DNA from: Candidatus Minimicrobia sp. QA0096
GTDB lineage: Bacteria > Patescibacteriota > Saccharimonadia > Saccharimonadales > Saccharimonadaceae
DNA length: 32,000 nt
NCBI RefSeq assembly: GCF_963967315.1
Contig: NZ_OZ017288.1
Coordinates: forward strand, 30,001-62,000
Direction: 5' to 3'
Part shown: positions 10,740 to 19,843 of the stretch, one piece after another
How the letters are laid out: the number at the start of each line of letters is the position of its first letter
How positions within the stretch are numbered: position 1 is the first letter of the stretch
The notes under the pieces: model-generated
What the model was told of the DNA's origin: nothing
What the model saw: the letters and a program-made list of their open reading frames with translations, nothing else
The model's database searches: none
Program-made: the position numbers and the translations under genes

Positions 10740-11625
10740 GGCGATCAACTTCTCTTCTGGATAGAGTAAGTTCTCTTTTTGTTCTATTTCTGTATGACGT
10801 AGAGAATATATACAACAATATAAAAATATGCAAAAGTCAAATAATTACAAAATGATAAGCTAGGGGAGTAGGGCAATAAAAATATAAAAATGTCAAATAA
10901 TATAAAATACGTTGTGGAAAACTTAACGAGCTTACGGCGCGCATACTCAGAGTTTATATTGATGTAAAAATATCAATGTAGCACTCCAGTATGTGTAGTG
11001 CTGGAATTAAAAATATTTTTTTTAAGTTCGTATTTTGTTGGTGTATATTTTTATAAAAGACAGCATGTTTTATGAAGTTGTATACAATAGAGAATCCCCT
11101 AGTCAAATTACTGGAAAAAGTTCGTTTTATAAGGTGTTATCGGATATATAGAGACATATGTATATTCACCTTTGTATGACATTTATTATTACGTAAAAGG
11201 TACATTGTGCGACATTAAAACTATATCTAAAACACGACTATTCCATCGTCTTTCTTCGCGATAAATTTATCTCATTTTCACCAAATCAACCTACTTGTCG
11301 TTTATCGTTTTATAAATCGCCCTATTTGCTGGCTTAGTGTGTTTTATGTTGTATGTTGGTTTATCTGCATTGGCTCGGATTTATAATTTATGTTTGTATC
11401 ACGCAAAATTTATCAATATAAATACTCAGCCGGATTCGTCTTTATATATGCTTAAAAATGACTAATAATTAGTTCGTATTTTGTTCTATTGTTTTTTAAT
11501 TGCTAATTTTGTGAAAGAGCTTGGGTGATTCTGTGCTTAATTATTTCACTGTTCCATTCGCCCGCCTTAAATCGCAGTAGGGGCATACCCCTGCCTTATT
11601 TTGATTGTTGGTAAAATGTGCCTTA

Positions 11626-11656
11626 TCAAAAAAGGCACCTCATTTTTGAGGTGCCT
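11626..11656 (-). terminator. Intrinsic terminator of the RHH gene
   Basis: Perfect 10-bp stem AGGCACCTCA (11633-11642) / TGAGGTGCCT (11647-11656) with a 4-nt loop. Read on the minus strand it is followed by a run of six T. Confidence 0.8.
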
Positions 11657-11700
11657 ATACAACAACGACTGCAAATTACAACAATCGCCCAGCCATAATA

Positions 11701-11892
11701 CTACTTTTTAAGCGATTGCTCAAGGCGGTAGTTTATCTCACCAGTTATGCTGCGACCGTTCTCTGCGGCTAGCACAACTAAGCGTTCATACACTTCCTGC
11801 TTAATTCGTACATTATAAACTGGCGTAGATATCTCAACCTTAGACTTGATAATCTTTCCATTCTTTTTTACAATTTGATTTACTATTGGCAT
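11701..11892 (-). CDS. Ribbon-helix-helix (Arc/CopG/MetJ-type) DNA-binding protein, 63 aa
   Basis: SD GGAGG lies 5 nt before ATG 11892. The C-terminal YNVRIKQEVYERLVVLAAENGRSITGEINYRLEQSL fits the beta-strand/helix/helix RHH pattern, and the gene has its own terminator. Confidence 0.7.
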   Translation of the reverse strand: MPIVNQIVKKNGKIIKSKVEISTPVYNVRIKQEVYERLVVLAAENGRSITGEINYRLEQSLKK

Positions 11893-12129
11893 ATTCGCCT
11901 CCTTTTTTATGAGGATACCTTAGCGCCAAGCGAGGCGTTAAGTTTATATTTTTATTATCTCTTTGGGTTTGCGATTCATTATAATATGGCGTATCCTCTA
12001 ATTGTTAATGTGCCTCGCCTGAGTGCTTCTATTATAGCAAAGTTGCACTCATAATGTAATCATTTTGCATGCATTTTATGTAAAATTTATCCTGAAAATG
12101 ATAATTTACCATATGGCGTCGCCGTACAT

Positions 12130-12161
12130 AAATAAAACCCGCCCCCATTTTCAGAGGGCGG
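12130..12161 (-). terminator. Minus-strand hairpin plus T-run between the CRISPR array and the RHH gene
   Basis: CCGCCC (12139-12144) / GGGCGG (12156-12161). Read on the minus strand the stem is followed by GTTTTATTTAT. Confidence 0.4.
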
Positions 12162-12287
12162 AAAGGCCACATGGATGTTTAAACCATGCGTTTGCAGTTT
12201 ATCACTATTTTTTAGATTCCGCAATATGCTTAAATATACAATAAAATAAGGCGTACCGCTTTCCGAGACCAGACCCGGGTGTCTTTG

Positions 12288-13774
12288 GTTATAGTTCCCT
12301 AACAATTTAGATATTGATATAATATTACGCCGGACGGGGGAAGAACACCAGCGTTATAGTTCCCTAACAATTTAGATATTGATATAATAAATCCGCTAAT
12401 CATGCAGTGAAAATGGATGTTATAGTTCCCTAACAATTTAGATATTGATATAATTTCACCATCAGCCTTTATATAAGCAGTGCGGTTATAGTTCCCTAAC
12501 AATTTAGATATTGATATAATTATAGAGTCATCAGTTGCTAAGGAGGCTCTGTTATAGTTCCCTAACAATTTAGATATTGATATAATGTCGCGTTCGTTAC
12601 GTTGTTGCGATAAAGGGTTATAGTTCCCTAACAATTTAGATATTGATATAATTACGCCCCTCTCTGTTAGGCTACGTGTTTAGTTATAGTTCCCTAACAA
12701 TTTAGATATTGATATAATGGTACGTTACCGCTCGTAGCGGAAAATATAGTTATAGTTCCCTAACAATTTAGATATTGATATAATTCAGAAATCTCTATAA
12801 TCATATGCCTCCTTGTTATAGTTCCCTAACAATTTAGATATTGATATAATTCAGAAATCTCTATAATCATATGCCTCCTTGTTATAGTTCCCTAACAATT
12901 TAGATATTGATATAATGTTGGTCAATCAAGATAATCGATCCACTAGGTTATAGTTCCCTAACAATTTAGATATTGATATAATCAGAATCGAATACATATT
13001 CTTTCTGAGTAAGTTATAGTTCCCTAACAATTTAGATATTGATATAATAGTCGTAAAGTCTATACTGTGCGACGAAAGGTTATAGTTCCCTAACAATTTA
13101 GATATTGATATAATTATGATAGCTAACACAAATAGCACTATGAAGTTATAGTTCCCTAACAATTTAGATATTGATATAATTATGATAGCTAACACAAATA
13201 GCACTATGAAGTTATAGTTCCCTAACAATTTAGATATTGATATAATTTGGATGTGTATCTCAAAAAGGCACGAGAGGTTATAGTTCCCTAACAATTTAGA
13301 TATTGATATAATGGTGCTATTAAGATCCCGTCACCAGGTTCGGTTATAGTTCCCTAACAATTTAGATATTGATATAATCGTCATCAAGATATTGCATATT
13401 TGAAAAGCGTTATAGTTCCCTAACAATTTAGATATTGATATAATTTACCCATCACGCCACTATCATTGATAAGGGTTATAGTTCCCTAACAATTTAGATA
13501 TTGATATAATTACGCCGCCTTTACAACAGCAAACGCCTTAGTTATAGTTCCCTAACAATTTAGATATTGATATAATCTGTGAGGCGAGGTAAACGCCGTC
13601 AGCCTGGTTATAGTTCCCTAACAATTTAGATATTGATATAATTTTTTTCGTATATAAAATAGTCATTGCTACGTTATAGTTCCCTAACAATTTAGATATT
13701 GATATAATAAAACTTACACACGCGTTCGTCTTTACTCGGTTATAGTTCCCTAACAATTTAGATATTGATATAAT
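12288..13774 (+). CRISPR. CRISPR array, 23 repeats / 22 spacers (type II-C)
   Basis: 23 identical 36-nt repeats GTTATAGTTCCCTAACAATTTAGATATTGATATAAT (first 12288-12323, last 13739-13774). Spacer 1 is 29 nt and all others are 30 nt, so the period is 66 nt. The + strand is assigned from tracrRNA complementarity and wobbles, the repeat-internal TGATATAAT box, and the downstream terminator. Confidence 0.98.
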
Positions 13775-13782
13775 ACTTCCTT

Positions 13783-13812
13783 AAATCCCCCTCTGTTACG
13801 AGGGGGATTTTT
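13783..13812 (+). terminator. Terminator after the last repeat, also between convergent cas2 and the array
   Basis: Perfect 11-bp stem AAATCCCCCTC (13783-13793) / GAGGGGGATTT (13800-13810) with loop TGTTAC. The T-run is on the + strand only. Confidence 0.7.
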
Positions 13813-13814
13813 GG

Positions 13815-14138
13815 TTAGAAAAATGCTAATTGCCCAGCTGGAACGGACTTTTCTTGGGTGGTTTTTTCGCCAACAATAACGTGCATGTGTGTAAATTGAT
13901 GCTCTGTTAAATAAAGCAATCGCACCGAGCCGCTGTCCGGGGCGTGCCTCTTAATTCGCATCATATGTTTTTCTGCAACGTCACGATTTGGACATAGCCG
14001 TGTATATATGCTGTATTGAAGCATGTCAAAGCCATCATCCAATAAGAATTTACGGAACTGTGCGGTGGCCTTGCGCTCTGTTTTGGTATTGGTCGGCAAA
14101 TCAAAGAATACTGCGACCCTCATAAGTTTGTATGACAT
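13815..14138 (-). CDS. cas2: CRISPR-associated endoribonuclease Cas2
   Basis: 107 aa. The N-terminal MRVAVFFDLPT...QYSIYTRL fits the type II Cas2 ferredoxin fold pattern. It is adjacent to cas1 (5-nt gap) and to the array. Confidence 0.9.
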   Translation of the reverse strand: MSYKLMRVAVFFDLPTNTKTERKATAQFRKFLLDDGFDMLQYSIYTRLCPNRDVAEKHMMRIKRHAPDSGSVRLLYLTEHQFTHMHVIVGEKTTQEKSVPAGQLAFF

Positions 14139-14143
14139 CCCTT

Positions 14144-15037
14144 TTACTGGAGGACGATTTTTGGTAGAAGAAGCTTATCTGCCTCCTTTGTCTCTATACA
14201 TTCAATAAAGCTCTCAACTGTTCGCTCAACCGAATGTCTCACGGTAAACTTCTTACCGTTCATTATAACATAATAATTTAATATGTCAATAATAAGTTGG
14301 CGATCATGCTTAGTGAGGCTGGCATCGCGGTCGCCGACATGAAGTGGCGCAACTTTTTCTAAGATATATAAATCGACAGCGGCACGGTACGGCTCAATTA
14401 GATCGTCAGCCAGGTTAAAGCTGTTAAGCTCATTGTGGTGAAATAGCCCCTGTGAGGCAACTAGTCCGCGAGCAGCAATATGTCTGGCAATGTGACTTCG
14501 CACCATAGCGTAGCCATAGTTTAATGCGGCATTGTGCCAGATTGGCTTGCGGCGTGTGGCGTCGCCCAGTATTTGGTCGAAATAGATTCTGGCGGCAATT
14601 GACTCGCGATTGCTGGTGTCGCCCGATTTAACATCGTTAGCTAAAGACCGCAAAGTGGAATCGTCTAGCCCGCGAGATCGCAAGACGTCTGCTTGATTTG
14701 TGATTTTACTGATAATAATTTGTTGCCATAGTTGCTTTTTTAATGGTTGGCTCATGGACAATTGTTGACGCGAAACTTTGGCTTGGCGCGAATGTTGTGA
14801 ATATGGTAGAAGTACGCTGGCAGGTAAATGCTTTTCGTCGCATATTACAGTGGTTGTTCCTTTTGTAGCTAATGCTGTCAGCAAATTTGTCGTGATAGTT
14901 GATCCGTAATTGTCTAAAATTAAGGCGTCAATATCTTCAATTGGAAGAGTCGATTCCATTTCCTGTGCAATTACTAGTTGATTATCACGCACGCTAAGCC
15001 GCGCAGGATTTTCGATAGCTACGACGCGCCAAGCCAT
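14144..15037 (-). CDS. cas1: CRISPR-associated integrase Cas1 (type II)
   Basis: 297 aa starting MAWRVVAIENPARLSVRDNQLVI, with the catalytic region ALNYGYAMVRSHIA...FHHNELNSFNLADDLIEPYR. The ATG directly abuts the cas9 stop. Confidence 0.92.
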   Translation of the reverse strand: MAWRVVAIENPARLSVRDNQLVIAQEMESTLPIEDIDALILDNYGSTITTNLLTALATKGTTTVICDEKHLPASVLLPYSQHSRQAKVSRQQLSMSQPLKKQLWQQIIISKITNQADVLRSRGLDDSTLRSLANDVKSGDTSNRESIAARIYFDQILGDATRRKPIWHNAALNYGYAMVRSHIARHIAARGLVASQGLFHHNELNSFNLADDLIEPYRAAVDLYILEKVAPLHVGDRDASLTKHDRQLIIDILNYYVIMNGKKFTVRHSVERTVESFIECIETKEADKLLLPKIVLQ

Positions 15038-18000
15038 TTATAGCCACCTGTAGTTATCGCCTAGTATAGAGATGTCGTAGCGCTCGATGAGATTTGCGGA
15101 GCGTGGTGAGATGCGACGGCGGTTTGTTCCTTCTTTGCTTGGAGAACTGGCGTTTATGACGGTTATTCGCCCACTATCAATGTCATAGGCTGTGTAGTAA
15201 CCCTCCTCGATATTATTACCGAAATAACACCTTACATAATCATTCGGATATAACGAGCAAACTTTAGTGAATGTCTCATCTACATCAGTAAATCCTTTTG
15301 GCACTGGCAGTATTTTTGTTGGTGCGGGCTTATTTTTTCCAACTTGGTGGGCGTAAACTGGCGCGAAGAAGTGTTCAATCTTGCCTTTCTTGTTCGGCTT
15401 TTGATATACATCAAGTCGCACCATAGATCCGTTGTTAACAAATGCCTTATCGTCGTTGATATAAAATCCGCTTGGTTGTGTCGAATATACTTTGATAGTT
15501 GAGACTGGAGACAGCTTATTGCCGTTTTTATCAGTCTTCTTGTCGTTTTTATATATGGGTTCAGCGAACGCTTTTTCGGGATTGTCATCGCAAGCGTCCA
15601 GTCTTTCAAGTAATTTTTTATATAGCCATTTATCTGATTCTTTAAGCGTGGAATTTTCGACATCCTTGCGTTTAACTTTTTTGAGCGGCACTCTTACGGT
15701 TCGTTGATCGCCGTCTTTAACTTTTGGTGAGCGAATTGTTTCTTTATGTGCCGAACCAGTCGCTTTACGGCGTGGCATACGTGAGACAAAAATTGGTTTT
15801 ACGCTCAATCGAAACTCTTCGTCGTAGTTATCAAGACCTCGCAACTCATTTTGCAGAGTCTTGATATCGACATTAAGGGTTCGCTTCATAACTTCTTTGC
15901 CGAAGTCATCCCACGGCTGAGGAAAATGTTTCGAAGATAGCACAAGCATTGCATTTTTACGACGCTGAGCTTTATTAAACTCATCTTCATCGATGATTTC
16001 TCCAGTGAGTTTATCAGTTTTTTCTTCCATCGTTTTGGCAGCTGCAAGCAGTTCTTTGATTTCGTGGCGCTTGGCGTGCAAGTTAGCTTGCATTATAATC
16101 TTTTGGTCAATTGCCGCTACAACTGCTGCATCTTTGGCGTGATGTAGAACGTCCTCGCTACGATCTTTAGCCAGACCCCAACGCTTGCGTAGATATGCTG
16201 TCGTTGTTCCGCTTGGTGCAATTACGCGCTGTTTTTCTTCACCTTCTGCAAAGTCAACATTTTGGCGTAAATAATTCTGAATAAATCGTGTGATGTATCT
16301 AGTATCGTTTAAGGCACGCACATTCCAGCTGTCGTTCTTATAATCCTGCAGAAGCAGATTTTGCTTCTTCTTCATTGCGTAGCCGTTATATTTGTAATTG
16401 ATGGCATTTGTGGCCTTATCGTCCGTTTTAATATCGCGTGTCTTATATATCGACTCTACTCTGGCGACAAACTCCTTCCAGCGGTTTTCATCTGCGCCAA
16501 AATATTCAAATGGAGTTTTATTGCTCTTTTTCTGGTTTTCTTCTGTTAGTACTAGCACTTTATTAGTTATCCCGTCATTATTAGAGCGTGAAAATGGTAC
16601 GATGTGGTCTATCTGATATGCATTGTCGTCTTGTAACATCGTGTCGAAATCGATTGGTTTTCCAGAATATGGACAAATACCGTTTTGCTCACGATAGAGC
16701 TTAACCTTAATAATTTGCTGACCGTTAAAATCGGCGTTTTTATTCAGTGGTACGCTAAGTTCTTTTAGGTGGCTGAGAAGTTGCTTGCCGCCCTTGGTTT
16801 TTGGCGATGCTTCATATCCATCAGCGATTATAGATTTAATGTCTTCGTTATATCCTTGATTCTCTTCATTTTCTTTTTTAATTGCGTTGCGTTCTTTGAA
16901 ATTTTTTGCCAAGTCACGAGCAGTTTCAACTTTAATAAAGTAAGGTTTACCGTATTTGCGTTCAATGGCGCGAACGACCTTCAGTGTTTGCGATATGGCA
17001 CGTTTTACGACGGGATTGGTGATTTGCTCTAGACTAGCTGATTGTTTCTTGAAGTCATAACCAGCGGCCTCACAGGCTTTATCGTAAGTCATACCATTAA
17101 GAATATGCGGTGTGATTTTTTGCAAAGCTTTTATCGACAGATGGCAGAATGACCCAAAATTAGTAGCTTTAATTTTGATAATTGCGTTTCTGGCGTCATC
17201 AGAAATTGGCAATGCATTTAATTCGGCTTTAATTCCTTCGTCAGATTTTTGTGTAGTGAGAATATAAGCGATTTGATTGATCGTTGATTCGTTGTCAATT
17301 TTCGCCCAATCTTCTGGTAGATTTTTTAGTGCTGTTTTAATATCATAGTAGGCTTTTAAACCGCCGAATGTATTTCCCTCTCCGAATTCATCGCCGTCCT
17401 TTTTCTTTCCGTGCGTATATTTTGGAACGTAATCTTCACTAATTCCCGCAATGCTACGCACTTTTTTATACGTTAGGCTTTTTTGGTTTCTGGCGGCTTC
17501 GATAACTTTATTTATCTGCTCTGAAGATAATCTTATCTCTAGATTTTCTCGCTTTGCCTGGCGCTTGCTGGCGTCGCGAGGTATGAATACCAGATGTGAT
17601 AAGTCGCTTGCCAAGCGAAAAATTTCGAAGCTGTAGCTAGCTCTTGGTGCTCGTTTTTCATTTTCTTCAAAAGTACAGTTCCCGACCATTTTTTTAATCA
17701 GCTCTTCAGTCATAAATGGGCGCTGGTACATAATTGCTGATATATTTACGACATTTTTGTCATCGTCCAAGCCGTAAAGCATTTCATTGATCGCTGTATC
17801 GGAAACGTTTTTTAAGGCATATCTTTTCTGGACCTCAATGATCTTTTCTAATTCGTGCAAAAAATCACCACGAGAAAAACTATTAGTGTAATCGTCACGC
17901 TTATTGCGTTTATGTGACGCAAAGTTTTCATCGCGACTCAGAGCTTCGCCGACGGTTTTATATTCATTCTCGGCGAGGAACTTTTCATTAGTTTTCAAGG

Positions 18001-18475
18001 CTTTTGATATGCGACCGCCTTCTTTTTCCGACTCTTCCTCAACTTTACGATTCGACTTAAATCCACGTCGTTTGGCGATTTGGTACATGACCTTGAGCAG
18101 CTCTTCTGGGGATAATTCCTCGGTGAGCGCTTTTGAACGCAGAGCATATACGTCTAATTTGTTAAATTCGGATTTGTCACTTAAGACTTCTTCGATTCGA
18201 TCTCTGGTGAGAATATTTTGGTCAATAAAGAATTGCTTCAAATTATTCAAACGTTGACGTCGCCGTTTTAAGCGACGGCGAGCTGACCGTGCGTCGCGGC
18301 GAGGTTTGGCAAGCGAATCTCCGTTTTGTGGATCTTCTGGTTTTTCAAAAATGCGCACCCCTAAATCATGGATGCGCTCTTTATCTAAGTCTAATACTGC
18401 CCAGCCGATTGAAGATGTCCCAATGTCTAGACCTAGTGAATATTTTTTTGGTGAATATGAATATTTTTGAGTCAT
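15038..18475 (-). CDS. cas9: CRISPR-associated endonuclease Cas9 (1145 aa, type II-C by locus content)
   Basis: RuvC-I YSLGLDIGTSSIGWAVL, Arg-rich bridge helix PRRDARSARRRLKRRRQRL, RuvC-II IKVETARDL, HNH YQIDHIVPFSRSNNDGITNKVLV and RuvC-III HHAKDAAVVAA. SD AAGGA precedes the ATG. There is no csn2 or cas4 in the locus. Confidence 0.97.
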   Translation of the reverse strand: MTQKYSYSPKKYSLGLDIGTSSIGWAVLDLDKERIHDLGVRIFEKPEDPQNGDSLAKPRRDARSARRRLKRRRQRLNNLKQFFIDQNILTRDRIEEVLSDKSEFNKLDVYALRSKALTEELSPEELLKVMYQIAKRRGFKSNRKVEEESEKEGGRISKALKTNEKFLAENEYKTVGEALSRDENFASHKRNKRDDYTNSFSRGDFLHELEKIIEVQKRYALKNVSDTAINEMLYGLDDDKNVVNISAIMYQRPFMTEELIKKMVGNCTFEENEKRAPRASYSFEIFRLASDLSHLVFIPRDASKRQAKRENLEIRLSSEQINKVIEAARNQKSLTYKKVRSIAGISEDYVPKYTHGKKKDGDEFGEGNTFGGLKAYYDIKTALKNLPEDWAKIDNESTINQIAYILTTQKSDEGIKAELNALPISDDARNAIIKIKATNFGSFCHLSIKALQKITPHILNGMTYDKACEAAGYDFKKQSASLEQITNPVVKRAISQTLKVVRAIERKYGKPYFIKVETARDLAKNFKERNAIKKENEENQGYNEDIKSIIADGYEASPKTKGGKQLLSHLKELSVPLNKNADFNGQQIIKVKLYREQNGICPYSGKPIDFDTMLQDDNAYQIDHIVPFSRSNNDGITNKVLVLTEENQKKSNKTPFEYFGADENRWKEFVARVESIYKTRDIKTDDKATNAINYKYNGYAMKKKQNLLLQDYKNDSWNVRALNDTRYITRFIQNYLRQNVDFAEGEEKQRVIAPSGTTTAYLRKRWGLAKDRSEDVLHHAKDAAVVAAIDQKIIMQANLHAKRHEIKELLAAAKTMEEKTDKLTGEIIDEDEFNKAQRRKNAMLVLSSKHFPQPWDDFGKEVMKRTLNVDIKTLQNELRGLDNYDEEFRLSVKPIFVSRMPRRKATGSAHKETIRSPKVKDGDQRTVRVPLKKVKRKDVENSTLKESDKWLYKKLLERLDACDDNPEKAFAEPIYKNDKKTDKNGNKLSPVSTIKVYSTQPSGFYINDDKAFVNNGSMVRLDVYQKPNKKGKIEHFFAPVYAHQVGKNKPAPTKILPVPKGFTDVDETFTKVCSLYPNDYVRCYFGNNIEEGYYTAYDIDSGRITVINASSPSKEGTNRRRISPRSANLIERYDISILGDNYRWL

Positions 18476-18554
18476 GATGGTCCTTTTTGTGAGATAATTT
18501 AATGCAATTATACAACCAAAATAGAATATTTGAAAGCGTAAATACTTTACTCAT

Positions 18555-18674
18555 AAAAAAGATAATCCGCTCAACGAGTGAACGGATTAGAGCTTTGCTT
18601 TAGTATTTCTACTAAATTATTATAGAAACCTAAAACAACTTAGATATTGATACAATCCTTACTTAAGGGACTGT
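18555..18674 (-). ncRNA. tracrRNA (predicted)
   Basis: + strand 18619-18656 resembles the full repeat in the same orientation, so the minus-strand RNA is an anti-repeat. It is followed by hairpin UUUAGUA-GAAA-UACUAAA (18599-18616), terminator stem UAAUCCG/CGGAUUA (18563-18589) and U6 (18555-18560). The candidate promoter is TTGCGC (18704-18709), 17 nt, TACACT (18681-18686) on the minus strand. The 5' end is approximate. Confidence 0.8.
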
Positions 18675-18801
18675 AACTACAGTGTACTCCAATCAATGCT
18701 ATCGCGCAAGTATTATTTTGGTCATATTCTGCCAACTGAGCGGCACTAGCACGGTTACCACCGCCGTCGACATTCTGGGATTCTTGTGCTATATTACGAG
18801 C

Positions 18802-18870
18802 AGAATCCCCTAGATGGTGTAACTCAGTTGATGGGCTCGTCCCTGCTGGCTCCATGGGGGATTTTCTTGT
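18802..18870 (+). ncRNA. Candidate small RNA, unit 1 of a tandem family
   Basis: Promoter TCGACA (18767-18772), 17 nt, TGc-TATATT (18787-18795). The predicted 5' end AGAAUCCCC pairs with GGGGAUUUU (18857-18865), which is followed by CUUGUUG. The result is a panhandle RNA of about 68 nt with no credible ORF. Confidence 0.45.
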
Positions 18871-18927
18871 TGTGGTGTGATCATTCTCATCATTGGTATT
18901 CTGGACTTCTTGTGCTATATTGGCACC

Positions 18928-19060
18928 ATCAGGGCTTCGACCGGCGGAAACTGGCGCGCCGCCGACATAGCTATCGCTATTGGTGGATGATGGAACAACA
19001 TTTGCGCCCCCATCCGAAGCTCTCGAAATCTCTTCTCGTTGTTGGGAGAGATTTTTTATT
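18928..19060 (+). ncRNA. Candidate small RNA, unit 2
   Basis: Promoter TTGGTA (18893-18898), 17 nt, TGc-TATATT (18913-18921). Terminator AATCTCTTC (19027-19035) / GGAGAGATT (19045-19053) is followed by a T-run extending to 19057. Confidence 0.4.
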
Positions 19061-19109
19061 TCTCCTTCTTATCATTGACATTCTGGGCTTCTTATACTAT
19101 ACTTCCATT

Positions 19110-19181
19110 AGAAAAGTCGTCCAGTCCCCGTTCGGCTTGTCCACGGGGCGCACCATTAAGGTCACCTGGGCGGCTTTTTTT
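19110..19181 (+). ncRNA. Candidate small RNA, unit 3
   Basis: Promoter TTGACA (19075-19080), 17 nt, TATACT (19098-19103). Closing stem GUCGUCCAG (19116-19124) / CUGGGCGGC (19166-19174) includes two G:U pairs and is followed by T7. The inner hairpin is CCCCG (19126-19130) / CGGGG (19144-19148). Confidence 0.45.
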
Positions 19182-19295
19182 CTTGGCTTCGCACATTACC
19201 TTCATAAAGAGTATCTCGCCCTGTTGTCTGTCTTCTAAGAAATTTACAGGCTATTAATCATTGATATCTTGAGGATTGTTTGCTATAGTGGAGTT

Positions 19296-19391
19296 ATTAA
19301 TATCCCCTCCCTTTAAGAGGTTCATCCTCTGAGGGGATGCTTCCAGAAGAATCCCCACTTAAATCCCGGTAATGGGATTCGGGGATTTTTT
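19296..19391 (+). ncRNA. Candidate small RNA, unit 4
   Basis: Promoter TTGATA (19261-19266), 17 nt, TGc-TATAGT (19281-19289). There are two nested hairpins: ATCCCCTC...GAGGGGAT, and AATCCCC..AATCCC-GGTAAT-GGGATT..GGGGATT, followed by T6 (19386-19391). Confidence 0.45.
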
Positions 19392-19403
19392 CTGTATTAT
19401 TTG

Positions 19404-19439
19404 GTTATAATGCCCCAACAATCTAAATACCGATATTCC
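19404..19439 (+). repeat. Solitary diverged CRISPR repeat (26/36 identical to the array repeat, same orientation)
   Basis: GTTATAATGCCCCAACAATCTAAATACCGATATTCC aligns without gaps to GTTATAGTTCCCTAACAATTTAGATATTGATATAAT. It lies 5.6 kb from the array, on the far side of cas9 and the tracrRNA, and has lost the 3' TATAAT box. Confidence 0.75.
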
Positions 19440-19480
19440 CTAAGAGCCACGTTTCACCTTTACTCCCGACGCTCCAGAGG

Positions 19481-19489
19481 TGATATAAT
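19481..19489 (+). promoter_or_regulatory. Extended -10 box TGATATAAT, 9 nt upstream of the speH ATG
   Basis: TGATATAAT at 19481-19489 and a second TATAAT at 19493-19498 abutting ATG 19499. There is no SD, so the transcript is predicted to be leaderless or nearly so. Confidence 0.45.
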
Positions 19490-19498
19490 TACTATAAT

Positions 19499-19843
19499 AT
19501 GCATGCCGCGGTCCAATCTATAACCATAAAAGTGAGCGAAGTTGATTCTGCTTTGCTTAATGACGCGGATGAGCTGCAGAAAATGTTAAGAAATGTTACG
19601 GAATTGGCTGGCTTACATCATCTGGAATCGGTGATGCATCAATTTTCTCCGCAAGGAATCAGCGCCGCCCTGCTTTTGTCGGAGTCGCACATCGCGATTC
19701 ATACGTGGCCAGAAAGCGGCGTGGCGTATATAGCGATGACAACTTGTAAAATGCTGGATGATGATAAATTGCAACAAATAAAAGAGTTGGTCGCACGTAT
19801 GTTGGATGCGAAAAACATAAGTATGGAAGAAATGGCATTGTAA
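19499..19843 (+). CDS. speH: S-adenosylmethionine decarboxylase proenzyme (small pyruvoyl-dependent class 1 type)
   Basis: Self-processing and active-site signature LLLSESHIAIHTWPE followed by AYIAMTTC. The size of 114 aa is typical. Confidence 0.9.
   Translation: MHAAVQSITIKVSEVDSALLNDADELQKMLRNVTELAGLHHLESVMHQFSPQGISAALLLSESHIAIHTWPESGVAYIAMTTCKMLDDDKLQQIKELVARMLDAKNISMEEMAL

What the first reader, a model, noticed from the sequence alone, without database searches (positions are those of the whole stretch)
19404..19439. Solitary diverged CRISPR repeat beyond cas9/tracrRNA whose substitutions are all wobble-compatible (possible second anti-repeat)
GTTATAATGCCCCAACAATCTAAATACCGATATTCC matches the array repeat at 26/36 positions, ungapped and in the same orientation. 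It lies 5.6 kb from the array and 12 nt after the unit-4 terminator. All 7 transitions relative to the repeat are T->C (positions 13, 20, 27, 28, 36) or G->A (positions 7, 23) on the + strand. None is C->T or A->G. If the minus strand is transcribed, each of these keeps a G:U pair with a + strand crRNA repeat. That is the same bias seen in the bona fide anti-repeat (G1->A, T19->C, T33->C). Given the repeat composition (19 T/G sites and 17 A/C sites), my hand estimate for 7 of 7 by chance is about 1 percent. T->C changes also run against the usual AT-ward mutation pressure. I see three alternatives: a second, diverged tracr-like anti-repeat; a relic terminal repeat of a lost second array; or a regulatory crRNA-like element. 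It has lost the TATAAT box, so it would not self-transcribe on the + strand.
Basis: partly seen in the sequence, partly recalled or inferred. Interest (0 to 1): 0.7.

Follow-up and report, generated by a model that had tools for sequence, protein, structure and literature searches.

The report
Leftover CRISPR repeat, not second anti-repeat
The lone repeat-like sequence beyond cas9 is a decaying leftover of a CRISPR array at the edge of a frequently swapped immunity locus in oral Saccharibacteria, and nothing indicates that it makes a second guide-partner RNA.

Summary
Window 19404-19439 matches the 36-nt array repeat at 26/36, ungapped and in the same orientation, and all 7 transitions are T>C or G>A. 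A hypothetical minus-strand RNA would pair with the crRNA repeat as well as the real anti-repeat does.

The "second anti-repeat" reading fails when relatives are examined (82 copies, 44 alleles, Saccharibacteria/Nanosynbacter).
- The element sits 39 nt upstream of the speH promoter whatever lies further upstream: the cognate type II-C system, an unrelated type II-A system, or no cas genes.
- It is absent from 26 loci that carry the same Cas9 family elsewhere in the genome.
- Its diversity equals that of four-fold degenerate sites (0.127 vs 0.12).
- The wobble bias disappears across alleles.
- A tracrRNA covariance model finds only the true tracrRNA.
- One relative has repeat, 30-nt spacer, then this element. 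Fourteen others join the array's upstream flank directly to it, and the array, cas genes, tracrRNA and small-RNA units are missing.

Verdict: a relic repeat that marks the speH-side boundary of a variable CRISPR hotspot. It is an ordinary kind of feature. The adjacent 58-nt hairpin plus linker is strongly conserved and unexplained.

The parts
19404..19439 (+). Solitary degenerate CRISPR repeat ('sol'): a relic repeat at the speH-side edge of the variable CRISPR block
   Evidence: It matches the array repeat at 26/36. It is present in 82 related sequences as 44 alleles. Its diversity of 0.127 equals that of four-fold sites at 0.12. It is the last repeat of a mini-array in L075.
12288..13774 (+). 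CRISPR array: 23 identical 36-nt repeats with 30-nt spacers. Each repeat ends in TGATATAAT, an extended -10-like box. The spacers at indices 7/8 and 12/13 are duplicated.
13815..18475 (-). cas2 (13815-14138), cas1 (14144-15037) and cas9 (15038-18475), a type II-C operon
   Evidence: Pfam matches to Cas2, Cas1 and the HNH/RuvC/Cas9 domains.
18554..18656 (-). The one tracrRNA: anti-repeat, then stem-loop UUUAGUA-GAAA-UACUAAA, then GCAAAGC, then a terminator
   Evidence: The covariance model built from 14 relatives scores 123.6 bits, E = 3e-23. The terminator was found. The anti-repeat changes together with the repeat across clades.
18767..19392 (+). Four promoter-plus-terminator small-RNA-like units between the tracrRNA and sol. 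They also occur in type II-A and cas-less haplotypes.
   Evidence: Promoter-like sites at 18767, 18893, 19075 and 19261. Repeated promoter segments. Folds with z-scores of -1.5 to -3.8. No Rfam match. Present in L043, L092 and L079.
19346..19403 (+). Unit-4 terminator hairpin, T-run and 12-nt linker CTGTATTATTTG. This stretch is strongly conserved and its function is unknown.
   Evidence: Diversity 0.02 (linker 0.003) against 0.12 at four-fold sites, P < 5e-5.
19479..19843 (+). speH promoter (extended -10 TGATATAAT at 19481-19489, immediately before the ATG) and the speH gene (19499-19843). This is the conserved right flank to which sol is attached.
   Evidence: The anchor pattern was found in 74 metagenome loci.
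11588..19403 (.). Variable block (hotspot). In cas-less relatives, homology to the window ends at 11587 and resumes at 19400-19403.
   Evidence: BLAST of L075, L085, L101 and L103 against the window.

Best explanation
The element is a relic CRISPR repeat. It is a decayed copy of the type II-C array repeat, fixed to the DNA just upstream of the speH promoter. It marks the right-hand boundary of a hotspot in oral Nanosynbacter-like Saccharibacteria, where whole CRISPR-Cas blocks (type II-C, type II-A or none) are exchanged or lost. It is not transcribed into a functional Cas9 partner RNA.

Its only likely activity is passive. As a direct repeat of the array repeats, it offers short homology at which the whole block (array, cas2-cas1-cas9, tracrRNA and small-RNA units) can be deleted or re-inserted.

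Shown: it derives from the repeat, it is independent of cas content, its diversity is near neutral, it lacks a tracrRNA scaffold, a mini-array exists at this site, and flank-to-element junctions exist.

Inferred: those junctions arose by recombination between an array repeat and this element. I could not determine the order of events that put the cas operon between the array and the relic.
For: 1. Derivation from the repeat. The match is 26/36 in register and orientation, against a chance expectation of about 1e-3. Some alleles in relatives are closer to the repeat, up to 30/36, with an array-like 5' part.

2. Independence from the cognate system. The same alleles occur next to the cognate cas9 (35 loci), next to a type II-A system with Csn2 and the unrelated repeat GTTTCAGTACTATTCAATATAACACTACTG (11 loci), and in 6 loci with no cas genes between the left flank and speH.

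3. Absence elsewhere. None of 26 loci of the same Cas9 family in other genomic contexts has it. That includes L017, where cas9 and tracrRNA abut speH directly.

4. Diversity. Values are 0.127 for all 36 nt and 0.123 for positions 1-24, against 0.12 at speH four-fold sites and 0.119 in the neighbouring intergenic DNA.

5. Pairing energy. The hypothetical pairing energy ranges from -45 to -24 kcal/mol across alleles. The mean is the same with the cognate system (-37.2), with II-A (-35.6) and with no cas genes (-37.6).

6. Wobble bias. Across 44 alleles there are 15 wobble-compatible transitions, 8 incompatible ones and 11 transversions. In positions 1-24 the counts are 9, 7 and 5.

7. Mini-array. 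L075 has flank, repeat, a 30-nt spacer, then this element, then speH.

8. Junctions. In 14 loci the 230 nt that precede the first array repeat in L002, L053, L062, L082 and L115 are joined directly to the element. Some of these alleles are chimeric, array-like up to position 19-21.

9. Active repeat-repeat recombination. Within-array spacer duplications occur in 11 arrays, including the window's.
Against: The window allele's 7-of-7 wobble-compatible transitions remain a 0.5-1% event taken on its own.

Invariant columns are more frequent in the element (16/36) than among four-fold sites (19%). Positions 17-32 have reduced diversity (0.058, uncorrected P = 0.03). Weak constraint on the 3' half, for example as part of the speH upstream region, is therefore not excluded.

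Several flank-to-element junctions keep the element's own 5' alleles (A7, G9, C13). A crossover would then have to fall within the first 6 nt, which simple homologous recombination does not readily explain.

No transcript data were available.

All copies come from closely related genomes (speH 88-98% identical), so persistence by itself says little.
Confidence: 0.8

Rival explanations
1. Second anti-repeat. A minus-strand RNA covering 19439-19404 pairs with the crRNA repeat through G:U-preserving changes and acts as an alternative or regulatory tracrRNA.
For: The in-silico duplex with the repeat is -37.6 kcal/mol, as good as the true anti-repeat at -34.1. Only 0.5% of random variants reach this. 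All 7 transitions in the window allele are wobble-compatible.
Against: The tracrRNA covariance model gives no hit on the minus strand here, while even the complements of array repeats score 17-20 bits. The stem-loop and GCAAAGC motif that are invariant in 14 tracrRNAs are absent. No consensus minus-strand promoter lies between 19440 and 19900. The element is kept in type II-A and cas-less haplotypes and is absent from 26 other loci of the same Cas9 family. Diversity in positions 1-24 is neutral. Alleles such as GTCGCAAT... and ...TAACTCAACAC... weaken the duplex to between -24 and -28 kcal/mol even next to the cognate cas9.
Confidence: 0.03
2. crRNA-like regulator (like scaRNA, tracr-L or CreA). 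A plus-strand read-through transcript carries the conserved 12-nt linker as a pseudo-spacer and the element as the repeat handle. With the tracrRNA, it guides Cas9 to a partly matching promoter.
For: The linker CTGTATTATTTG sits where the spacer seed would be and is almost invariant, with diversity 0.003. A strong promoter (unit 4) lies upstream.
Against: The plus-strand element pairs poorly with the anti-repeat, at -11.7 against -34.1 kcal/mol, which is worse than the average random variant. The 5' half, which would form the Cas9-proximal stem, is the most variable part, with diversity 0.18. A strong terminator lies between the promoter and the element. The linker is equally conserved in type II-A and cas-less haplotypes. 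The only similar site in the window, GTATTATTT at 18709, is at chance level and mismatches the PAM-proximal base.
Confidence: 0.04
3. Co-opted cis element. The 3' half of the relic, nearest the speH promoter, has been recruited as an upstream regulatory or insulating sequence for the speH operon. Alternatively, the element is maintained because it allows reversible loss and gain of the CRISPR block.
For: The distance to the speH extended -10 box is constant at 39 nt in about 80 sequences. Diversity at positions 17-32 is reduced to 0.058, P = 0.03. L071 keeps only the last 14 nt of the element. Flank-to-element junctions occur with at least three junction variants.
Against: L073 lacks the element completely yet has an intact speH. 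L017 has speH without it. The element lies about 58-93 nt upstream of the expected start site, beyond the usual UP-element range (inference). The reduced diversity is weak and uncorrected for multiple tests. A benefit of being deletable is not needed to explain deletions.
Confidence: 0.1

Closest known systems
Degenerate or orphan repeats at the ends of CRISPR arrays, and degraded stand-alone repeats in CRISPR-cas loci (for example the type III mini-arrays that Shmakov et al. 2023, PMC10120712, judged to be degraded and non-functional)
   Same: It is a repeat-derived sequence in register and orientation with the array. It has lost part of the repeat (here the 3' promoter box), it evolves neutrally, and it has no conserved target or partner. 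In L075 it is literally the last repeat of a two-repeat array.
   Different: In the window it is separated from the array by the whole cas operon, the tracrRNA and four small-RNA units (5.6 kb). It survives replacement of the type II-C system by a type II-A system.
tracrRNA anti-repeat (type II systems)
   Same: It is a repeat-like sequence upstream of cas9 whose complement could pair with the crRNA repeat through G:U pairs.
   Different: It has no stem-loop, GCAAAGC motif or tracrRNA-type terminator scaffold, and no consensus minus-strand promoter. It does not co-occur or co-vary with the Cas9 family, and it shows no purifying selection.
scaRNA of Francisella novicida, tracr-L of Streptococcus pyogenes and CreA-type crRNA-like regulators (summarised in PMC10120712)
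   Same: It is a solitary degenerate repeat in a cas locus, next to a conserved short sequence that sits in the spacer position.
   Different: The repeat part pairs poorly with the tracrRNA and is hypervariable. The conserved linker is independent of the type II-C system. No target was found.
Repeat-mediated deletion within or across CRISPR loci (spacer loss by repeat-repeat recombination; my own knowledge, not checked in a paper here)
   Same: Haplotypes lack everything between an array repeat and this element, with the junction inside or at the edge of the repeat. Spacer duplications within arrays show that repeats recombine.
   Different: One partner is a 26-30/36 relic rather than a second array, and the deleted segment includes the cas operon, the tracrRNA and unrelated small-RNA units.

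Membership tests
tracrRNA / anti-repeat | Complementarity of the transcribed strand to the crRNA repeat | tested here: met
   For the window allele the duplex is -37.6 kcal/mol, against -34.1 for the true anti-repeat. Other alleles fall to -24.
tracrRNA / anti-repeat | Cas9-binding scaffold (stem-loops and terminator) 3' of the anti-repeat on the same strand | tested here: not met
   Covariance model R1, built from 14 tracrRNAs, scores 123.6 bits at 18554-18656(-). It gives no minus-strand hit at 19300-19445 at E <= 10.
tracrRNA / anti-repeat | Promoter on the anti-repeat strand | tested here: not met
   The consensus scan finds no minus-strand promoter-like site between 19440 and 19900. A consensus scan is weak evidence.
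tracrRNA / anti-repeat | Co-occurrence and co-variation with the cognate Cas9 and repeat | tested here: not met
   It is present with type II-A and with no cas genes. It is absent from 26 loci of the same Cas9 family. The true anti-repeat does change with the repeat.
tracrRNA / anti-repeat | Expression and binding to Cas9 | not testable with these tools
   No transcriptome or binding data were available.
crRNA-like regulatory RNA (scaRNA, tracr-L, CreA type) | A repeat handle able to pair with the tracrRNA anti-repeat | tested here: not met
   -11.7 against -34.1 kcal/mol, and 88% of random variants pair better. The 5' half has diversity 0.18.
crRNA-like regulatory RNA (scaRNA, tracr-L, CreA type) | A conserved pseudo-spacer with a partial match to a promoter in the genome | tested here: inconclusive
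   The linker is conserved (diversity 0.003), but also in haplotypes without the type II-C system. Only a chance-level 9-nt match was found in the window. The rest of the genome was not available.
crRNA-like regulatory RNA (scaRNA, tracr-L, CreA type) | Association with the cognate effector across relatives | tested here: not met
Relic or degenerate CRISPR repeat | Significant similarity to the array repeat in register and orientation | tested here: met
   26/36, against a background maximum of 22/36 and a chance expectation of about 1e-3.
Relic or degenerate CRISPR repeat | Found as a repeat of an array, with a normal-length spacer, in a relative | tested here: met
   L075 has a repeat, a 30-nt spacer, then the element. 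This is a single locus.
Relic or degenerate CRISPR repeat | No purifying selection beyond that of surrounding non-coding DNA | tested here: met
   Diversity 0.127, against 0.12 at four-fold sites and 0.119 in the adjacent intergenic DNA. Positions 17-32 are somewhat lower (0.058, P = 0.03).

The most novel reading that the evidence does not exclude
The relic repeat and the first array repeat work as a pair of direct repeats. They let the whole CRISPR-Cas block (array, cas operon, tracrRNA and small-RNA units) be lost precisely and regained by recombination. This would give these reduced-genome epibionts a population-level on/off switch and swap mechanism for Cas9 immunity at one hotspot. Separately, the ultra-conserved hairpin and linker next to the relic could be an undescribed functional RNA or cis element of that hotspot.
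Probability: 0.12. Interest if true: 0.5.

Novelty: new member of a known kind. Interest (0 to 1): 0.2.

Why it matters
The main value is as a correction. A statistically striking pattern in one sequence (7 of 7 wobble-compatible changes, in the 0.5-1% tail) vanishes once 44 alleles are compared. A solitary repeat next to cas9 therefore should not be called a second tracrRNA or a regulatory guide on pairing arithmetic alone.

The population picture has modest interest of its own. In oral Saccharibacteria, one site next to speH holds a type II-C system, a type II-A system or no CRISPR system. The same relic repeat marks the boundary in all cases, and some junctions lie inside the repeat. No spacer is shared among 46 arrays. 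This is useful material for studying how CRISPR-Cas is gained and lost in bacteria with very small genomes.

Tried and rejected
- Rfam. The gathering-threshold scan of the whole window and the E-value scan of 18400-19600 found no family for the element, the units or the tracrRNA.
- tRNA scan: none found.
- A possible second relic at 18709-18755, similar to the linker plus the start of the element. Its local alignment score is 25, the same as noise elsewhere in the window, so I dropped it.
- A plus-strand promoter created by G7>A (TATAAT at positions 3-8 of the element). There is no -35 box and no TGn motif, the scan does not call it, and the hexamer is lost in 15 of 82 alleles.
- A second partial repeat ending at the speH TGATATAAT box. 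Only 13/36 positions match, so it is just a shared extended -10 motif (read by eye).
- Inferring which end of the array receives new spacers from spacers shared between relatives. No spacer is shared among 46 arrays and 608 spacers, so the polarity is unresolved. I therefore avoid calling the element the 'trailer' repeat of the present array.
- Phage-borne copies (RNA anti-CRISPR-like solitary repeats). The element's core and the array repeat have no exact match in the viral contigs.
- My first regular expression for the unit promoters matched nothing. I used the repeat finder instead.
- A literature search for repeat-mediated loss of CRISPR-Cas returned nothing specific enough to cite.

Full report
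**What is in the window.** The window carries a type II-C CRISPR-Cas locus.
- The array has 23 identical 36-nt repeats (GTTATAGTTCCCTAACAATTTAGATATTGATATAAT) at 12288-13774 on the + strand.
- cas2, cas1 and cas9 lie on the minus strand at 13815-18475.
- The tracrRNA is on the minus strand. Its anti-repeat appears on the + strand at 18619-18656 and its terminator at 18589-18563.
- Between the tracrRNA and the finding lie four units on the + strand (18767-19392). Each has a strong sigma-70-like promoter and an intrinsic terminator.
- The finding is at 19404-19439.
- Downstream are an extended -10 promoter and the genes for S-adenosylmethionine decarboxylase (speH) and spermidine synthase.

Relatives found through Cas9 show that the organism is an oral Saccharibacteria (TM7, Nanosynbacter-like) bacterium.

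**Check of the observation.**
- The match to the repeat is 26/36, ungapped and in the same orientation. The best unrelated match in the window is 22/36. The chance expectation of a match of at least 26/36 is about 1e-3.
- The seven transitions are T>C at positions 13, 20, 27, 28 and 36, and G>A at 7 and 23. The three transversions are at positions 9, 34 and 35.
- A hypothetical minus-strand RNA would pair with the crRNA repeat at -37.6 kcal/mol. The real anti-repeat pairs at -34.1.
- Only 0.5% of 2000 random variants with the same number of transitions and transversions pair as well.
- The plus-strand RNA would pair poorly with the tracrRNA, at -11.7 kcal/mol.

**Relatives: where the element occurs.** I reached relatives by two independent routes.

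The first route was Cas9. It gave 42 genome loci, one per species. Eleven have the element. All eleven belong to the group in which the CRISPR block lies next to speH. The other 26 loci with a readable cas9 upstream region have the tracrRNA anti-repeat but no second repeat-like sequence. That includes L017, where cas9 and the tracrRNA abut speH directly with neither units nor element.

The second route was a 28-nt pattern in the speH promoter, which lies 39 nt away from the element and does not depend on its sequence. It gave 74 metagenome loci. Nearly all carry the element at the same distance from the promoter.

What lies upstream of the element differs among these loci:
- the cognate type II-C cas9 at 91-98% identity;
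- cas9 variants of 78% and of 41-45% identity, with the same cas1 and cas2;
- a quite different system whose cas9 is about 23% identical. It has Csn2, a SpyCas9-like REC/PI architecture and the unrelated repeat GTTTCAGTACTATTCAATATAACACTACTG, so it is type II-A;
- no cas genes at all between the conserved left-flank gene and speH (L043, L075, L085, L092, L101, L103).

The same alleles of the element occur in all of these contexts.

**Is it under selection?** I measured nucleotide diversity per site in 50 aligned loci.

| Segment | Diversity |
|---|---|
| Whole element (36 nt) | 0.127 |
| Positions 1-24 (the part that pairs in a crRNA:tracrRNA duplex) | 0.123 |
| Positions 1-16 | 0.18 |
| Positions 17-32 | 0.058 |
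| Four-fold degenerate sites of speH | 0.12 |
| Intergenic DNA between the element and the promoter | 0.119 |
| Hairpin and linker immediately upstream (58 nt) | 0.02 |

- The low value for positions 17-32 has an uncorrected P of 0.03.
- The element also has more invariant columns (16/36) than the four-fold sites (19%). Weak constraint on part of it therefore cannot be excluded.
- The 58-nt hairpin and linker are clearly constrained (P < 5e-5).

**Does the wobble pattern generalise?** It does not.
- Across 82 sequences and 44 alleles there are 15 site-level transitions of the compatible kind (T>C, G>A), 8 of the incompatible kind (A>G, C>T) and 11 transversions.
- In positions 1-24 the counts are 9, 7 and 5.
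- The hypothetical pairing energy runs from -45 to -24 kcal/mol across alleles.
- Its mean does not differ between loci with the cognate system (-37.2), with type II-A (-35.6) and with no cas genes (-37.6).
- Alleles such as GTCGCAAT... break the stem next to the guide in either strand model, and they occur next to the cognate cas9.

**Is there a tracrRNA-like gene on the minus strand?**
- I aligned 14 tracrRNAs from relatives. They share an invariant stem-loop (UUUAGUA-GAAA-UACUAAA), a GCAAAGC motif and a terminator. Their anti-repeats change together with the repeats of their arrays.
- A covariance model built from them scores 123.6 bits on the real tracrRNA and 17-20 bits on the complements of array repeats. 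It finds nothing on the minus strand at the element.
- The consensus scan finds no minus-strand promoter between 19440 and 19900.

**What the element is.** Three observations place it as a leftover array repeat at the boundary of a variable block.
1. In L075 the order is upstream flank (homologous to the window's array flank), then a near-intact repeat with its TATAAT box, then a 30-nt spacer, then the element, then speH, with no cas genes.
2. In 14 loci the sequence 5' of the element is not the unit-4 terminator. It is the same 230 nt that precede the first array repeat in L002, L053, L062, L082 and L115 (shorter stretches of the same flank are seen in L004 and L049). The array's upstream flank is therefore joined directly to the element. 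The array, cas2-cas1-cas9, tracrRNA and units are all missing. L085, L101 and L103 confirm that no cas genes remain.
3. In cas-less relatives, homology to the window stops at 11587 and resumes at 19400-19403, the 5' edge of the element. In L073 it resumes just after the 3' edge, and in L071 inside the element.

Some junction alleles are chimeric, array-like up to position 19-21 and element-like after that (L048, L096, L101, L103). This is what a crossover between an array repeat and the element would leave. Spacer duplications within 11 arrays, including the window's, show that repeats do recombine in these genomes.

The recombination step is an inference. Other junctions keep the element's own 5' alleles, which would require a crossover in the first 6 nt. 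I could not establish the order of events, or which end of the array receives new spacers, because none of 608 spacers is shared between 46 arrays.

**Comparison with known systems.** Stand-alone repeat-like sequences in type II loci are usually the tracrRNA anti-repeat. About 6% of type II loci have additional mini-arrays. Known functional cases are scaRNA, tracr-L and CreA-type regulators. Degraded, non-functional repeats are also described (PMC10120712). Type II-A and II-C systems are known in Saccharibacteria (PMC10746230).

This element fails the defining tests for an anti-repeat: scaffold, promoter, and association or co-variation with the cognate system. It also fails those for a crRNA-like regulator: pairing with the tracrRNA and association with the effector. 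It meets those for a relic repeat. Neither the element's core nor the array repeat has an exact match in the viral contig collection.

**Verdict.** The favoured interpretation is not supported. This is an ordinary kind of feature, so overall interest is low.

Two matters remain unexplained and may deserve a separate look. One is the very strong conservation of the 58-nt hairpin and linker just upstream. The other is the nature of the four small-RNA-like units, which stay at this site whichever CRISPR system is present.

Noticed in passing
window 19346-19403: The terminator hairpin of unit 4, its T-run and the 12-nt linker CTGTATTATTTG are almost invariant in 50 loci (diversity 0.02, linker 0.003, against 0.12 at four-fold sites). 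The T-run and linker are kept even where a different hairpin precedes them (L113, L114), and in type II-A and cas-less haplotypes. I have no explanation.
   Followed up: partly
window 18767-19392 (+): There are four tandem units. Each has a near-consensus sigma-70 promoter, and three of the promoters are 67-100% alike. Each encodes a 70-130-nt structured RNA that ends in an intrinsic terminator. None matches Rfam. The number and form of the units vary between relatives, and they persist without cas genes.
   Followed up: partly
window 11588-19403; loci L043-L116: The interval between the left-flank genes and speH is a hotspot. It holds a type II-C system, a type II-A system (Csn2, repeat GTTTCAGTACTATTCAATATAACACTACTG), or no CRISPR-Cas. 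L043 has remnants of both repeat types.
   Followed up: partly
L089, L107, L109, L114 (also L025, L088, L102): Their Cas9 proteins are only 41-45% (or 78%) identical to the window's. Where the contig reaches them, cas1 is 89-95% identical (L107, L109), cas2 is 97% identical with an identical array repeat (L107), and the tracrRNA is of the same family (L089, L107, L114). This looks like replacement of cas9 alone within the locus.
   Followed up: no
window 12785-12880 and 13115-13210; arrays of L016, L018, L030, L034, L042, L049, L052, L062, L082, L108: Spacers are duplicated within arrays, adjacent or several units apart. No spacer is shared among 46 related arrays (608 spacers), which points to very fast turnover.
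   Followed up: partly
tracrRNA of L003, L005, L007, L008, L010, L013, L031, L036, L042 and others: The first tracrRNA stem-loop carries insertions of about 25-50 nt in several lineages, while the anti-repeat, the GCAAAGC motif and the terminator are kept.
   Followed up: no
window 19479-19501: The speH promoter has the same extended -10 motif (TGATATAAT) as the 3' end of every CRISPR repeat. It ends 9 nt before the ATG, so the speH mRNA may be leaderless or nearly so.
   Followed up: no
L049, L053, L062, L082, L115 and class-2 loci, about 174 nt upstream of the first repeat or of the element: Another decayed repeat-like sequence (for example AGTTCCCTAATAATTTAGACATTTATACAG, 25-31/36) lies in the array's upstream flank. 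The first array repeat also carries single changes in L004, L009, L034 and L093.
   Followed up: no
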